From contig CP068257.2 of assembly GCA_009914755.4 (NCBI GenBank), positions 40,544,001-40,608,000 of the forward strand: DNA of 64,000 nucleotides, given 5' to 3'. The stretch's first letter is position 1, and each line of letters opens with the position of its first letter. This DNA comes from the human T2T-CHM13v2.0 reference genome, Homo sapiens. This document shows, in pieces, positions 6,797-40,112 of this stretch. Below the pieces are notes generated by a model. That model searched no databases. It was not told the origin of the DNA and was given only the letters and a program-made list of their open reading frames with translations. Made by a program: the position numbers and the translations under genes.

Positions 6797-6843
6797 GCCT
6801 CTGCCCCCTGCCAACCCCCCTCCTGCCAACCCCCCTCCTGCCA
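6797..6843 (+). repeat. 3 copies of the 15-mer CTGCCAACCCCCCTC in tandem
   Basis: ctgccaacccccctcctgccaacccccctcctgccaacccccg. Confidence 0.8.
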
Positions 6844-7119
6844 ACCCCCGTTTTCAGGTCTCCTTTTGGAGACAACAAGGTCACTGTGGCACAAGGACCC
6901 ACAGTTCCTTATAGTCCAGAGAAATTTAGGGCGGTGGGCGGTAAGCTGGGGCAAGAACTGTTCTCGGGCAGCCCCGGCTGGAAACATCACAGATTTGTCA
7001 ATGAGTTTGCAAACATGATTGAGACATCTCCGCTCAGGAGCCTTGGGCTTCAGGTGACAATGACTCACTGGCATGGGCTACCAAGTGTGTGTGTATTTGA
7101 CCTCAGCGGGTTACACATG

Positions 7120-7202
7120 CACAACACACAGACACACAAAGACACGGACAGACACAGATACACACACAGACACACACACACACACACACAGAAATATACA
7201 CA
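7120..7202. repeat. Compound CA-rich simple repeat, (CA)n/(ACAGAC)n, left part
   Basis: cacaacacacagacacacaaagacacggacagacacagatacacacacagacacacacacacacacacacag. Confidence 0.9.
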
Positions 7203-7497
7203 GGCCGGGCACGGTGGTTCAGGCCTGTAATCTCAGCACTTTGGGAGGCTGAGGCAGGCGGATCACTTGAGGTCAGGAGTTCGAGACTAGCCTGGCCAAC
7301 ATGGTAAAACCCCATCTCCACTAAAAATACAAAATTAGCTGAGCGTGGTGGTGCATGCCTGTAATCCCAGCTACTCAGGAGGCTGAGGCAGGAGAGTTGC
7401 TTGAACCTGGGAGAAAGAGGTTGCAGTGAGCCAAGATCATACCACTGCACTCCAGCCCAGGCAACAGAGCAAGACTCCATCTCAAAAAAAAAAAAAC
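7203..7497 (+). mobile_element. Alu SINE inserted inside the CA-rich repeat
   Basis: GGCCGGGCACGGTGGTTCAGGCCTGTAATCTCAGCACTTTGGGAGGC ... CTCCATCTCAAAAAAAAAAAAA. Confidence 0.92.
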
Positions 7498-7815
7498 AAA
7501 CGAAACACGGAGAGAGACATACCCAAACATATACACAGACACACACACACGAATACACACAGACACACACAGAGAGACACAGAGAGACACACGCAAACAC
7601 ATACACACACTGACACACAGACACACATATACAGAGACACACATATACAGAGACACACATAGGTACACACAGACACAGAGAAACACACACACACACAAAC
7701 ACACACATACAGACATATGCACAGAGAAACACACACACAGAAGACATACAGACACACACACAGAGACACACACAGCCACATACAGACACACAGAGCCTCA
7801 CACACAGGCACACAC
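7498..7815. repeat. Compound CA-rich simple repeat, (ACACAGAGAC)n-like, right part
   Basis: Runs of acacacagacacacacagagagacacagagagacac... The -strand ORFs here (Cys/Val-rich) and the +strand ORFs (His/Thr-rich) are translation artefacts. Confidence 0.9.
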
Positions 7816-8199
7816 GCCGCCCTGAGGCCACACAGGCCACACTTTGTACGCAGCCCCCACCTTCCACAGGCCTCTCTGTTTGTACAAACACCGCCAAACA
7901 CATCCCCCTCATCAGCCCCTTTGAGTTTTCAAAATAGTTACGATATCCTCACTCCAACAATATCTGGAGGAAGGCTGCCTTTCCCCAATTTTATTTTTCT
8001 TAGACAAAGAAACAAAGAGTCCAGGAGACGCCTGAGAGAAGACAGAGGAAGTGGCAGAGCGGGGGAGGGGAGCAGAGCATCCAGCAGCCCAGAGAAGGGG
8101 AGCAGGGAGGGGGGGACCCAGTGGAAGGCTCAGAGCCACCGGTGAGGTGGAGGACCATCACAGCCACGGATTCTGTAGGCGGACTTGTCAGGACAGAGT

Positions 8200-9495
8200 G
8201 GAGTGAGGGTGAGTGAGGGGCAGATTCAGATGGCTGTTCAGGGGCGAGTGTGGGGAGACTCGTGGCTGTGCGGGGGTGAGTCAGGGGAGACTTGTGTGGC
8301 TGTGCAGGGGTGAATGGGGGGAGACACATGGCTGGGCAGCAGTGAGTGGGGGGAGGCTTGCATGGCTGTGCAGGGGTAAGTTGGGGAAGACTCCCATGGC
8401 TGTGCAGGGGTGAGTTGGGGGAGACTTGCACGGCTGGGCAGTGGTGAGTAGGGGGAGACTCGCATGGCTGTGCAGGGGTGAGCTGGGGAGAGACTCACTT
8501 TGCTGTGCAGGGATAAGTGAGGAGGAGACTCAAATGTCTGGGCAGGAGTGAGTGAGCGGTGACTCACATGGCTGGGCAGGGGTGTGTGAGAGAGGGAGAC
8601 TCACGTGGCTGGGCAGGGGTGAGTGAGGAGGAGACTCACAAGGCTGGGCAGGGGTTAGTAGGGGGTGACTCCTATGGCTGGGCAGAGGTGAGTGGGGAGA
8701 GGCTCCCATCGCTGGGCAGGGATGAGTGAGGGGAGACTCATGGCTGTGCAGGGGTGAGTGAGAAAGGGAGACTCCCATGGCTGGGCAGGGGTGAGTTGGG
8801 GGAGACTCATATGGCTGGGTAGGGGTGAGTGGGGGGAGACTCCTATGGCTGGGCAAGGGTGAGTGAGAGGAGACTCATAGGGCTGTGCAGGGATGAGTTG
8901 GGGGGAGACTTACGTGGCTGTGCAGGGGTGAGTCGGGGGAGACTCGCATAGCTGTGCAGGGGTGAGTGGGAGGAGACTCACGTGGCTGTGCAGGGGTGAG
9001 TGGGGGAAGACTCGCATGGCTGTGCAGGGATAAGTGAGCAGGAGACTCACATGTCTGGGCAGGAGTAAGTGAGGGGTGACTCACATGGCTGGGCAGGGGT
9101 GTGTGAGAGAGGGAGACTCACATGGCTGGGTAGGGGTGAGTGAGGAGGAGACTCACATGTCTGTGCAGGGGTTAGTCGGGGGTGACTCCTACGGCTGGGC
9201 AGAGGTGAGTCGGGAGAGACTCCCATGGCTGGGCAGGGGTAAGTGAGAGGAGACTGACAGGGCTGTGCAGGGGTGAGTGAGAGAGGGAGACTCACATGGC
9301 TGGACAGGGGTGAGTTGGGGGAGACTCACACGGCTGGGTAGGGGTGAGTGGGGGGAGACTCCTATGGCTGGGCAGGGGTGAGTGAGAGGAGACTCACAGG
9401 GCTGTGCAGGGGTGTGTGAGAGAGGGAGACTCACATGGCTGGGCAGGAGCTAGTGAGGGTGAGACTGCATGGCTGGGCAGGGGTGGGTGAGGGAT
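8200..9495. repeat. GC-rich minisatellite (VNTR-like): ~36 tandem units of ~34-37 bp, consensus about GGCTGKGCAGGGGTGAGTGRGGGGAGACTCACATG
   Basis: Direct tandem units are visible throughout. Block 8502-8895 reappears at 9019-9412, giving a ~517-bp higher-order period. The proline-rich -strand ORFs are artefacts. Confidence 0.95.
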
Positions 9496-10006
9496 GAGGA
9501 ATGGAGGCAAAGAGCAGATTGCTCCTTAGGGACCTGGGTTGCTAATGGTAAGAGGCTGCTGAGGAGGCTCCTGGTTGCAGAGAAGGGTTTGTTTTCGCCT
9601 TGTGCAAGATGGGCAGGTTTGTGGGCTGGAGGGCAGGAGGCGAAGACACAGCCTGGATGAGGGGGAGGAGGAGGGGCTTGGGAAGCAATGGGGAATGGGT
9701 CGCTGTGAGCAGAGGGCCCTGCCAGCTTCGGATGGAGGGGCAGTGGTGAAGGAGGGAACGTGAGTGGACAGATGTTAGGGCTCAGTGGGGGGTGCGGGGT
9801 GCAGGGTTGGGCCCGCTGGTGGAGTGGAAGTCGGTCATGAGGGATGTGCCAGGTGCCCAGTCCTCAGTGCGGTCAGAGGTGAGCCCCAGGTCAGAGTGCA
9901 CGGCCTGGGGAGTGTGGTGAGTAGTTAATGGGTGCGAGCCTGTTGACTTCTGCCATTAAAATCTCTTTATTTTGAGATAATTATTATAAGAAGAGTCGAT
10001 AAGATA

Positions 10007-24199: not shown

Positions 24200-27171
<2,972 letters not shown>

Positions 27172-28214
27172 CTAAACATGTGCTCCCTCTCCCCAGTTAT
27201 CTTTTGTGTTTAATTATTAATTGTGGATAAATAATAAAATGTTCATGAAACCAAATTTTTAACATTTTTTGGGTTTTGCTCTGTGTCCTGGAATTAGGTA
27301 AATTTTTGTAAATGTTCTGCTTGTGCCTGAAACATGCCTGTGTTCTCTCATGTCACAGATGCGGCTGGTGTCACCTATGTCTCTGGGGCTCTGTCATTTT
27401 GGGATGTTCTGTATAACTCGCAACTAGCAGTGACTGCATCTCTGTGTTAGAAGGCATTTCTGGAAATACGGAAGGCAGGGCAGGCCAGAAGTACTTGGGA
27501 ATTGACATTCCTAGGAAAAGCCATGAGACAGTGAGGATGAGAGCTGGGGAAAGGCCCTCTCCTGTCTACAGACATGTTTGTTTTACTGTCCTGGTGAACT
27601 GAAGCTTTGTCATTGAGTACTGACACTCTATTTATTGCTCATGGTTTTGCCTTACATTTATTTTTCTGATATTTACATGTATTCTTTGGTTAATGTTTTC
27701 TTGCTATTTCTCTTCTCTCTTTTTAGTTTTTTATATGGAAATGTCTAAACATAAAATAGAGAGCTTCGTGTAACAAACTACAATGATGCAGCTTCAAGAA
27801 TCAGCAGAAAACCAACTTTTGTATTTTAAACCTGTTTTTAAAGAACTAAGTTGGCTTTTGAATTTTCTCTCTTGGAGATGTTTTTCAAAGAACCAGACCA
27901 TTCATCCATTCTACCTATGTCTGATTTCTAACTCAGGGACTTCTACTTTTACCTATATTAATTCCTTCTTTTTACTTTTTTTTGCCAGGTATAAGGTTTG
28001 TTTTAAACTTCAATTATTCTACCCTTCATTTTCAAAATTTTTAATGTGATTCTCTTTTTATATCTTTTTTCTTTGTTTAATAATTTCTTCTGCTTCTTTT
28101 ACATTTGAATAATTTCTTCAGTATTTCCGCCAGAATGTCCTATAAAATTAATTCTATTTGATGTGAATGCATGCTTCTAATGTTTCCAATGCTAGTTTTG
28201 GGGATCGGTCATTT

Positions 28215-29451: not shown

Positions 29452-30432
29452 ATGTGTGTGTGTGGTGTAAGTGTGTCTGTGCGGTGTGTGTAGTGTGTGT
29501 ATGTGGTGGGGTGTGTGTGTGGTGTGTTTGTGTGGTATATGTCTGGTGTGTGGTGTGGTGTATGTATGGGAGATGTGTGGTGTGTGATGTGTGGTGTGCA
29601 TGTAGTGTGTATGTAGTGTCTGTATGGTGTGTGGTGCGGTGTGTGGATGTGGTGTGTGGTGTGTGTGATGTATGGTGTGTGGTACACTGTGTGCATGTGT
29701 GTGTGTGTGGTATGGTGTGTGTGATGTATGGTGTTGTGTGTGTGTGTGTGGTATGTGGTATATGTATATGTGATATGTGTGTGGTATGTGTATGAGGTGT
29801 GTGGTTGTGTGTGTGAGGTGTGTGGTGTAGTGTGATGTGGTGTGTGTCTGAGATGTGTGGTGTGGTGTGTGTAGTGTGTGTGTTGTGTGGCATGTGTGGT
29901 GGTGTGTGTGTGAGGTGTGTGGTGTGGTGTGTGTTTATGGTGTGTGTGTGTGAGGTAGGTGTTTTGTGTTGTATGTGTTGTGTGTGGTATATGATGTGGT
30001 GTGGCACGGTATGTGTGTGAGGTGTGTGGTGTATGTGGTTTGTGTGTGTGGTGTGTGGTTTGTGTGATGTGTGTGAGGTGTGTGGTGTGGTGTGTGTCGT
30101 TTGTATGTGTGATGTGTGTGGCGTGTGTGCACACATCTGTGTGGTGTGCGTGTAGTGAATGTGTGTTTGGGTATGTGTGTGTTGTGTGTGTATGGTGTGA
30201 GTGGTGTGTGGTGTGTATGTGTGGTGTGTGTGTGGTGTGTGGTGTATATGTGTGGTGTGTGTATGTGCCTGTGTGTGTGGTGTGCATGGGGTGAATGTGT
30301 GTTTGGGTATGTGTGGTGTGTGTGTGGTTTGTGTGTGTGGTGTATATGTGTGGGGTGTGTGTGTGGTGTATATATGGGGCATGTGTGTGGTGTGTGTAGT
30401 CTGTGTGCATGGCATGGGGTGTGGGTGTCTGT
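29452..30432. repeat. About 1 kb of GT-rich cryptic simple repeat, (TG)n interrupted by GGTGTGT/TGTGTGGTGTG motifs
   Basis: Continuous gtgtgtgtggtgtaagtgtgtctgtgcggtgtgtgtagtgtgtgtatgtggtgg... The 358-aa and 344-aa His/Thr/Pro-rich - strand ORFs and the Cys/Val-rich + strand ORFs are repeat artefacts. Confidence 0.95.
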
Positions 30433-38500: not shown

Positions 38501-40112
38501 CTTCCTTCTTCGTGTTCCTATTCCCAAACCCTTCTCCCTTTTTTTTTTTTTAACACCTTTCCAGTTTCTCTTTTTGGAAGTGGGCCAGAGTCAGCGATCA
38601 GGGCAGCTCTTTCTGTGAATTGAAAAGGACAGGTGCGTCAAGCCGGTGTAGATTTGCTAGACTCCCCACAGGGTCCTTCTTCAAACCCCTCCTTATTTTT
38701 ATTAAGAAGAAAAATCCCCCACATCTCAAGCTCTCCCTTTCCCAGCTTCAGCCTGCCCTGCCCACCGAAGGCATTTGCAGTTACCCTGCTCTCTCCTGGG
38801 CTTTCTCCCTGGCTCCTGCCCAGAATATTCTAGAATATAGACTCCAGGAGGACTAGAAAAAGCAACTCAGTGGTTTAAAAAAGACTGCTTTGGAGAATGA
38901 CATCTTTAATGCTAAAAACGCTAATTGTCATTAACTTCATTATCTTCGTTATTCTTTATTCATCAAGTTCTTTACATGGAAAGGACCATGTTTCCTCCAG
39001 GACTCGTAGCTGACACCACCCCACCCCCCATTAGACAGCTTCCTCCACTGCTGCCAGAATGGCTTTAAATGGCAGAACACAGTTCCACAGCACACAGCAC
39101 AGCTTGAATACAAACGCCCCTGAGAGGAGCGAGGGCCAAACAGCTGGTCTCAGATGCCAAGAGCAGGTTCTGAAAGGTAAGGAGAGGATGACTGAGCTCA
39201 AGGACACCAAAGATGCAGAGGGGTGGTGACCAGAGGAGGTCCCCGCAGGAGGCTCCAGGGGGGCCCTCAGAGACACAGCTCCTGCCCTTCCCAGCATGGC
39301 CCAGGGTGCTCCAGCAGGGTGAAGCCCCCGCGGGTAAGCCACTCCCTTGCCTGTCATCATCCCAGCCAGCCACCACGCCACAGTCTCCACGCCACAGTCT
39401 CCACACCACAGTCTCCTTGCTGTTTTGTGGTTCTCAGACCTGTTGAGCTTTCAGCAGAGCAAGAAAATAGTCTGCGGCGTATTTTTCAGAGTGAATCATT
39501 TCTTATCCTGTGGTTCATCAGGAAAAAACAAAGCAAAACCCTCATCCTCATGTCCTCGTGGCCTGAGCTCATACACAAATCCTGCCTGCAATGACCTCAG
39601 ACTGCACCAGCAGGTGAGGCCGGCAGTGAGGGCAGCCTGATGGGCTTAGACCAGCAGACCAGGTTAGGAAAGCAGATGGCCCCTTGCAGCAGGGGTGCAA
39701 AGCCCCTGAGGTATGTGTGCAAGGGGACTGGCAAAGCGTTGTGAAAGAGACGGAGGACACTGACCATCAGCGTTGCCACCTCCAGTGGCTCAGGACTGAC
39801 CCGAGGCATGGCTCTCAACTCTGGTCACCCACTGGAGTCCCCTCTTCCTGGATCCCACACCCCAAGCTCCTGCCTTATGGGTCAGGGGTGACAGTCACTC
39901 CCCAGGTGATTCTACAGGGCAGCCTGGCTTCAGAACTGTGATGGCATCACACTCAGTCACTGTGCAAGAGGCAGGGAGGCCTGGCCAGTCTGGGTGGGGC
40001 TGGAGGGTTAGGTGTTCATGACAGATGGGGAGGGAGTTGGCACGCTCTGCCAGGGCTGACGTTACGATGATACCATTTTCAAGAAGGAATACAGAAGTGA
40101 TGTGGGCACTTA

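What the first reader, a model, noticed from the sequence alone, without database searches (positions are those of the whole stretch)
8200..9495. GC-rich minisatellite with ~517-bp higher-order periodicity and embedded donor-like CAGGGGTGAGT motifs
About 36 tandem ~35-bp units (GGCTGKGCAGGGGTGAGTGRGGGGAGACTCACATG) fill the array. An 11-unit block at 8502-8895 is repeated at 9019-9412, so the array expanded by multi-unit unequal exchange and is likely a length-polymorphic VNTR. Every unit carries CAG/GGTGAGT, which resembles a 5' splice-site consensus, plus GGGG runs on the + strand that could form G-quadruplexes. If the locus is transcribed, those are potential cryptic donors and polymerase-stalling sites.
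Basis: seen in the sequence. Interest (0 to 1): 0.5.

Follow-up and report, generated by a model that had tools for sequence, protein, structure and literature searches.

The report
Ordinary old G-rich primate minisatellite
This is a real but ordinary 1.3-kb non-coding tandem repeat (about 37 copies of a 34-base G-rich unit) in Alu-rich primate DNA; its splice-donor-like and G-run motifs are simply part of the repeated unit, and nothing found here points to a function.

Summary
The array is real: 8207-9493, 34-bp period, 37.4 copies, 77% matches, 62% GC, strong G-over-C bias on the + strand. The "517-bp periodicity" is one old internal duplication of about 13 units (8443-8892 vs 8961-9411, 92% identical, K2P 0.08), not a recurring higher-order repeat.

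Two claims are overstated:
- Only 10 of 37 units carry CAGGGGTGAGT. 19 carry GGTGAGT, and 22 sites score as strong donors.
- Only one canonical short-loop G-quadruplex motif exists.

Because of it, the minus strand also carries donor-like sites, plus acceptor-like sites.

Of 38 units, 37 are distinct, and no recent duplication is visible. The array therefore looks old and slowly evolving, not hypervariable.

No coding exon, CpG island or RNA family was found in the 64-kb window, so the host locus and the direction of transcription could not be determined. Length polymorphism could not be tested either.

Known precedents (F7 intron 7, CBS, IFI6) show that reiterated pseudo-donors usually stay silent.

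Verdict: a known kind of element, low interest.

The parts
8207..9493 (+). Minisatellite array: about 37 head-to-tail copies of a 34-bp unit, consensus GGCTGGGCAGGGGTGAGTGGGGGGAGACTCACAT. Unit lengths are 32-37 bp; a 37-bp variant carries an extra AGG/GAG-type triplet.
   Evidence: Tandem Repeats Finder; unit parsing; unit alignment; unit profile scan with nhmmer.
8443..8892 (+). Copy A of the internal duplication of about 13 units.
   Evidence: Local alignment. 449 aligned positions, 34 substitutions (21 transitions, 13 transversions, 10 CpG-associated), K2P 0.080.
8961..9411 (+). Copy B of the internal duplication, offset by 517-519 bp (15 units) from copy A.
   Evidence: family D4; lag-15 identity 0.866 against about 0.79 at other lags.
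8207..8363 (+). Degenerate 5' edge units, with the lowest profile scores (22-27 bits) and a partial first unit.
9437..9493 (+). Degenerate 3' edge units (13 and 8 bits). This stretch holds the only canonical short-loop G4 motif (9475-9493).
8001..10000 (+). Wider G-rich, G-over-C skewed domain in which the array sits. The flanks are not unit-like.
   Evidence: 200-bp composition profile; flank-to-unit alignment against shuffles; nhmmer.

Best explanation
This is a non-coding, G-rich, strand-asymmetric minisatellite in Alu-rich primate (most probably human) DNA.

Origin and growth (inferred): it arose by tandem duplication of a 34-bp unit. It grew by replication slippage and unequal exchange, the usual minisatellite mechanisms. 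One of those events duplicated about 13 units.

Later history (inferred): since then it has mostly decayed by point mutation, including CpG transitions. Almost every unit is now unique.

The motifs: the donor-like GGTGAGT, the G runs, the short GTGAGT/ACTCAC inverted repeat and the E-box or AP-1-like words are all parts of the amplified unit. None shows signs of selection. The most likely state is therefore a neutral repeat with no sequence-specific function.

Polymorphism (estimate): some copy-number variation among individuals is likely, roughly 0.7 in my estimate. Hypervariability is unlikely, roughly 0.1.

Shown here: the anatomy, the boundaries, the single duplication and its divergence, the motif counts, and the lack of constraint. 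Inferred: the mechanism of growth, neutrality, and the level of polymorphism.
For: - Array and sharp boundaries.
- Non-coding: the 34-bp period is not a multiple of 3, and the only frame of 110 aa or more that touches the array lies mostly in the left flank and crosses about 7 units.
- Of 38 units, 37 are distinct. The one identical pair (8813 and 9332) are positional partners in the duplication.
- Only lag 15 stands out in unit identity.
- The duplicated copies differ by K2P 0.080, with 10 of 34 substitutions at CpG. Array CpG observed/expected is 0.19.
- With copy B removed, shared-variant linkage is R = 0.27 against a null of 0.22.
- The donor hexamer is not the best conserved block (0.919, against 0.957 for GAGACT). 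The stem shows no compensatory change, and only 8 of 35 units have a full 6-bp stem.
- Hairpins are no more stable than shuffles, z = -0.5 to -1.6.
- No Rfam family matches the array.
- Primate context: about 25 Alus, confirmed independently by sub-threshold SRP hits, plus L1 fragments.
- No coding exon was detected among 636 non-repeat ORFs or 62 exon candidates.
Against: - Function cannot be excluded from sequence alone.
- The array lies in a 2-kb G-skewed domain, next to the best exon-like interval in the window (8004-8141). That could mean it is transcribed.
- 88% of differences from consensus are variants shared by two or more units. Some past shuffling or conversion therefore occurred, and intra-array conversion could inflate the apparent age of the duplication.
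- Population variation and orthologues were not examined.
- The donor weight matrix and the Alu consensus were typed in from memory.
Confidence: 0.85

Rival explanations
1. It is a hypervariable Jeffreys-type minisatellite, possibly B6.7 itself (34-bp unit, 20q13.3). Its array would be reshuffled at high rate in the germline by recombination-initiated conversion.
For: - The period is 34 bp, which matches my recollection of B6.7 (Tamaki et al. 1999; memory only).
- It is GC-rich with strong strand asymmetry.
- 12 units contain TGGGCAGG, most of the Jeffreys core.
- Variants are concentrated at a few positions and shared among units.
Against: - 37 of 38 units are distinct, and there are no runs of identical variant repeats.
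- The only detectable duplication is 8% diverged and still collinear over 13 units.
- There is no exact Jeffreys core, chi or PRDM9 13-mer.
- Window GC averages about 0.46 with AT-rich L1 stretches, which is not typically subtelomeric.
- The B6.7 sequence or primers could not be obtained for comparison.
Confidence: 0.08
2. It is a functional RNA-level or transcription-level element of a host transcript. On the + strand, an array of U1-type 5' splice sites and G clusters could act as cryptic donors, as a U1 snRNP sink, or as an R-loop/G4 pause element. On the - strand, it would read as donor plus C-rich tract plus acceptor repeats.
For: - 22 donors of at least 8 bits lie on the + strand, 17 per kb against about 1 per kb elsewhere. 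The - strand has 14 donors of at least 6 bits and 22 acceptor-like sites.
- G is 47.7%, skew is +0.5, and R-loop-initiation-type G clusters lie on the + strand only (7 and 14, against fewer than 1 expected).
- 34% of 25-nt windows have a G4Hunter score of at least 1.2.
- An exon-like interval ends 66 bp upstream of the array.
Against: - No evidence of transcription is available. The window has no CpG island, no coding exon and no Rfam hit.
- The donor motif is not preferentially conserved.
- In F7 intron 7 and similar genes, downstream pseudo-donors are silent.
- Only one canonical G4 motif exists, and loops are mostly 5 to about 17 nt. Only loops of 3 nt or less destabilise minisatellites in yeast.
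Confidence: 0.05
3. It belongs to the class of minisatellites whose first monomer spans an exon-intron boundary (F7 IVS7, CBS IVS13, IFI6 intron 2). The array would then have arisen by amplifying a real splice donor.
For: - Units contain a strong donor.
- The best exon-like interval in the window (8004-8141, +) lies just upstream and ends in ACCG|GTGAGG.
- The class is documented in PMC1557585.
Against: - The array starts 66 bp after that donor, and the intervening sequence is not unit-like (p about 0.22; no nhmmer hit).
- The exon is unverified. It has no match in PDB sequences, Pfam or the large protein collection.
- The period and copy number differ from all named members.
Confidence: 0.02

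Closest known systems
GC-rich human minisatellites / VNTRs in general (Jeffreys-type, e.g. MS32, MS31, CEB1, B6.7)
   Same: Unit of tens of bp in a head-to-tail array of about 1 kb. GC-rich, with one G-rich strand. Part of the core-like word (TGGGCAGG) is present. Edge units are degenerate. There is evidence of multi-unit duplication.
   Different: Units are unusually heterogeneous (37 of 38 distinct, 77% matches). There is no exact core or PRDM9 motif. The only visible duplication is old. Variability among individuals was not tested.
F7 intron-7 37-bp minisatellite and relatives (CBS IVS13, IFI6 intron 2, LMNB2, PDGF), as described in PMC1557585
   Same: Tandem units that each carry a 5' splice-site-like sequence and G triplets. 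This is the best available model for how reiterated donors behave: the most upstream site is used and the rest stay silent.
   Different: In those genes the first monomer spans a real exon-intron junction, and the pseudo-sites are identical to the authentic donor. Here no exon junction is shown, the array begins 66 bp after the nearest exon-like donor, and only about 60% of units keep a strong donor.
G-quadruplex-forming minisatellites CEB1 and CEB25 (PMC5491262)
   Same: A G-rich strand with several G tracts per unit, including a G sextet in many units. The G4Hunter score is positive.
   Different: CEB1 instability depends on three G triplets separated by single-nucleotide loops. Here the tracts are separated by 2, 5 and about 17 nt, and the canonical motif occurs only once.

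Membership tests
Minisatellite (tandem repeat with a 10-100 bp unit) | Head-to-tail array of a unit of tens of bp, far beyond chance | tested here: met
   Tandem Repeats Finder: period 34, 37.4 copies, score 1324. There are 8 near-consensus matches against 0 in shuffles, and 37 profile hits.
Minisatellite class used for polymorphism prediction (Denoeud et al. 2003, as summarised in PMC1781109) | Unit >= 17 bp, >= 10 copies, >= 350 bp, >= 70% matches; predicted polymorphic if GC >= 0.48 and HistoryR >= 0.54 | tested here: inconclusive
   The class criteria and GC (0.62) are met. HistoryR could not be computed with the original algorithm. My own redundancy index is 0.42, or 0.27 without copy B, and it is not comparable with the 0.54 threshold.
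VNTR (variable number tandem repeat) | Copy number differs among individuals | not testable with these tools
   No other human or primate copy could be retrieved. The protein-collection search and the three contig scans gave nothing relevant.
Hypervariable Jeffreys-type minisatellite | Shared core GGGCAGGAXG (recalled from memory) | tested here: not met
   There are 0 exact matches to GGGCAGGANG. The partial core TGGGCAGG occurs in 12 units.
Hypervariable Jeffreys-type minisatellite | Very high heterozygosity and germline mutation rate; arrays built from a few interspersed variant repeat types | tested here: inconclusive
   The rate is not testable here. The internal structure argues against it: 37 of 38 units are distinct, and there is only one old duplication.
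Minisatellite B6.7 (specific locus) | 34-bp unit, plus sequence identity of repeats and flanks to the published locus | not testable with these tools
   The period matches my recollection. The defining paper and any primer or repeat sequences are not held.
Donor-reiterating intronic minisatellite (F7 IVS7 class) | First monomer spans an exon-intron boundary | tested here: not met
   The nearest exon-like donor is at 8141. The array starts at 8207, and 8137-8206 is not unit-like (p about 0.22). The exon itself is unverified.
Donor-reiterating intronic minisatellite (F7 IVS7 class) | Each monomer carries a functional-looking 5' splice site on the transcribed strand | tested here: inconclusive
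   22 of about 37 units score at least 8 bits on the + strand. The transcribed strand is unknown.
G4-forming unstable minisatellite (CEB1/CEB25 type) | Several G triplets separated by short (<= 3 nt) loops in each unit | tested here: not met
   Motif counts are 1 with loops of 1-7 nt, 2 with loops up to 12 nt, and 18 only when loops up to 20 nt are allowed. The loop criterion comes from PMC5491262.
SVA element VNTR / immunoglobulin switch region (considered) | SVA: flanking (CCCTCT)n, Alu-like and SINE-R parts. Switch region: AGCT-rich pentamer-based repeats upstream of an IGH constant gene. | tested here: not met
   Tandem Repeats Finder reports no CCCTCT array. Pfam finds no immunoglobulin-domain exon in any ORF. 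SINE-R could not be searched, because no repeat library is available.

The most novel reading that the evidence does not exclude
If the array is transcribed, its roughly 22 strong U1-type 5' splice sites on the + strand could make it a length-dependent U1 snRNP sink. On the - strand, the units read as donor plus C-rich tract plus acceptor. Such a sink might set the nuclear retention, premature termination or splicing of a host non-coding or intronic transcript. Copy-number alleles would then tune that effect.
Probability: 0.03. Interest if true: 0.5.

Novelty: already known. Interest (0 to 1): 0.12.

Why it matters
As it stands, it matters little. GC-rich minisatellites of this kind are common in primate genomes, are listed automatically by tandem-repeat annotation, and are a well-understood class.

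It would matter only in two cases. One is if the array proved to be a common length polymorphism inside a gene, with copy number associated with splicing or expression. The other is if it turned out to be a classical hypervariable locus. Both are quick look-ups in human reference resources that were not available here.

Tried and rejected
- **Naming the locus.**
  - Text searches of about 8 million papers for seven sub-strings of the unit, on both strands, gave 0 hits.
  - A crude codon-usage and splice-site exon finder gave no convincing exon.
  - 62 concatenated exon candidates gave no hit against PDB sequences or the 5.8-billion protein collection.
  - All 636 non-repeat ORFs of at least 45 aa were scanned against Pfam. 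Only L1 ORF1 and reverse-transcriptase hits were significant; the rest were at chance level.
  - Pfam refuses frame translations that contain stops.
- **Finding other alleles or orthologues.**
  - A flank-plus-array ORF (8000-8431, -) gave no hit in the protein collection.
  - An 18-mer of the unit was scanned in the metagenome, prokaryote-genome and viral contig collections. It gave 13, 31 and 0 single isolated matches in unrelated bacterial or environmental contigs, about the number expected by chance, and no arrays.
- **B6.7 lead.** The defining paper is not held, and five citing papers and two supplements give no sequence.
- **UPS29 (ACAP3) minisatellite.** By PCR product sizes its unit is about 45-50 bp, not 34, so it was rejected.
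- **Hairpin or cruciform idea.** The predicted stems are weak and not better than shuffles, and there is no covariation.
- **Decayed units in the flanks.** None were found.
- **137-bp sub-period from Tandem Repeats Finder.** The lag analysis does not support it.
- **Transcription-factor words.** NF-kB-like, E-box and AP-1 words occur in a minority of units only, and there is no CTCF core.
- **RNA genes.** There are no tRNA genes, and no Rfam family matches the array.

Full report
**Observation**

Tandem Repeats Finder reports a single array at 8207-9493 with period 34, 37.4 copies, 77% matches, 4% indels and score 1324. Parsing gives unit lengths of 34 bp (21 units), 35 (6), 37 (5) and 32 (2). 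A profile HMM of the unit finds 37 consecutive units from 8232 to 9493, plus a partial unit at 8207. It finds nothing in the flanks or anywhere else in the 64 kb. The units at both edges score lowest, as is usual for minisatellites. The array is 62% GC and 47.7% G, and the 2-kb bin that holds it has a GC skew of +0.50.

**Higher-order structure**

Autocorrelation peaks at shifts of 34 and 517 bp. Local alignment shows 8443-8892 and 8961-9411 are collinear copies at about 92% identity, with a 1-bp and a 2-bp indel. Without gaps they are only 72% identical, because of the 2-bp indel. Mean identity between units is about 0.79 at every lag from 1 to 24 except lag 15, where it is 0.866. This is one duplication of about 13 units, not a recurring higher-order repeat. 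The 137-bp row from Tandem Repeats Finder has no support either.

**Age and turnover**

- The two copies differ at 34 of 449 sites (21 transitions, 13 transversions, 10 CpG-associated; K2P 0.080). Array CpG observed/expected is 0.19.
- At commonly used primate neutral rates of 1-2.2e-9 per site per year (my background knowledge), this corresponds to roughly 18-40 million years. That is an upper bound if intra-array conversion contributed to the differences.
- Of 38 units, 37 are distinct. The one identical pair (8813 and 9332) are positional partners in the duplication.
- 88% of differences from consensus are variants shared by at least two units. However, linkage among variants (my parsimony redundancy index) is 0.42 against 0.25 for a column-shuffled null, and only 0.27 against 0.22 once copy B is removed.
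- The array therefore records little recent duplication history. It looks like an old, slowly evolving minisatellite rather than a hypervariable one.
- The published predictor of polymorphism (GC >= 0.48 and HistoryR >= 0.54, for arrays of this class; PMC1781109) is met for GC. HistoryR could not be computed in its original form.

**Donor-like motifs**

- Exact CAGGGGTGAGT occurs in 10 units, GGTGAGT in 19 and GTRAGT in 24, so 'every unit' is wrong.
Most are GGG|GTGAGT at 9.2 bits. That is 17 per kb, against about 1 per kb elsewhere.
As a result the minus strand also carries 14 donor-like sites of at least 6 bits. It also has 22 acceptor-like sites (a C-rich tract followed by CAG), while the + strand has none.
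- The donor hexamer is not specially conserved among units (0.919). GAGACT is the best conserved block (0.957).

**Structure potential**

- *Hairpins.* Those predicted from the inverted repeat are weak and not better than dinucleotide shuffles (z = -0.5 to -1.6). Only 8 of 35 units have a full 6-bp stem, and there is essentially no compensatory change.
- *G-quadruplexes.* The canonical G4 motif (loops of 1-7 nt) occurs once, at 9475-9493. There are 2 motifs with loops up to 12 nt and 18 with loops up to 20 nt. G4Hunter averages 1.04, with 34% of 25-nt windows at 1.2 or above and 10% at 1.5 or above.
- *Published comparison.* Work on CEB1 and CEB25 shows that only G4s with short (<= 3 nt) loops destabilise minisatellites (PMC5491262). 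Here the tracts are separated by 2, 5 and about 17 nt.
- *R-loops.* R-loop-initiation-type G clusters are enriched on the + strand only (7 and 14, against fewer than 1 expected). R-loop formation would be plausible if that strand is the non-template strand, but this is inference.

**Context**

- The window holds about 25 Alus, confirmed independently by sub-threshold SRP matches. It also holds L1 fragments, so it is primate DNA, most probably human.
- There is no CpG island, no tRNA gene and no Rfam family at gathering score.
- No coding exon could be found, by codon-usage and splice scans, a PDB sequence search, a search of the large protein collection with 62 candidates, or Pfam scans of all 636 non-repeat ORFs of at least 45 aa.
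- The array is therefore deep-intronic, in a non-coding transcript, or intergenic. The locus and the transcribed strand remain unknown.
- The best exon-like interval in the window lies at 8004-8141 (+), just upstream of the array. The 66 bp between its donor and the array are not unit-like, and the exon is unverified.

**Comparison with known systems**

- The element fits the general minisatellite class.
- It lacks the exact Jeffreys core, chi and the PRDM9 13-mer. It contains TGGGCAGG in 12 units.
- The 34-bp period recalled B6.7. That locus's sequence could not be obtained, and the internal structure argues against a hypervariable locus.
- The documented class of donor-reiterating minisatellites (F7 IVS7, CBS IVS13, IFI6, LMNB2, PDGF) is the best functional analogy. 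In those genes the pseudo-donors are functional in principle but normally silent, because the most upstream site is selected (PMC1557585).
- The defining feature of that class, a first monomer that spans an exon-intron junction, is not met here.

**Verdict**

This is a real, correctly located, but ordinary G-rich minisatellite. The multi-unit duplication is confirmed but is single and old. The donor and G4 statements are overstated. Polymorphism and transcription are untested. Interest is low, and the kind of element is already known.

Noticed in passing
window 8004-8141 (+): This is the best exon-like interval of the whole window in a crude scan. It has acceptor tttatttttcttag|AC (10.0 bits), an open frame, and donor ACCG|GTGAGG (9.2 bits). 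It ends 66 bp before the array. It has no match in PDB sequences, Pfam or the large protein collection, so it is either a non-coding exon or chance.
   Followed up: partly
window 8207-9493 (-): On the minus strand each unit reads AT|GTGAGTCTCCCCCCACTCACCCCTGCCCAG|CC, that is, donor-like site, C-rich tract, then CAG acceptor-like site. There are 14 donors of at least 6 bits and 22 acceptor-like sites of at least 6 bits. The + strand has no acceptor-like sites.
   Followed up: partly
window 8001-10000: The G-rich, G-over-C skewed domain (skew +0.3 to +0.57) extends beyond the array on both sides. For example, 9601-9800 is 50% G without resembling the repeat unit.
   Followed up: partly
window 7120-7815: A repeat cluster lies immediately upstream of the array: (CA)n at 7120-7202, a full Alu at 7203-7490, and then a 283-bp (AC)n/(ACACACACAG)n tract at 7533-7815.
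   Followed up: no
window 29453-30407: A TG-rich complex repeat of about 950 bp (periods 2, 7, 9, 11 and 23 reported). It produces long spurious His/Thr-rich ORFs of up to 358 aa on the minus strand.
   Followed up: no
window 26200-27200: L1 retrotransposon fragments. ORF 26611-27126 (-) reads as L1 ORF2 sequence. Pfam RVT_1 and L1 ORF1 (Transposase_22) hits came from the batch of long ORFs, and those two hits were not traced to a particular ORF.
   Followed up: no
window 6807-6849 and 39373-39416: Two small near-perfect tandem repeats: CCTGCCAACCCCCCT x 2.9 (100% matches) and CCACGCCACAGTCT x 3.1 (96% matches).
   Followed up: no
whole window: There is no CpG-island-like 500-bp window anywhere in the 64 kb, despite about 25 Alus and GC of 0.50-0.60 over the first 10 kb. 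No coding exon was detectable.
   Followed up: yes
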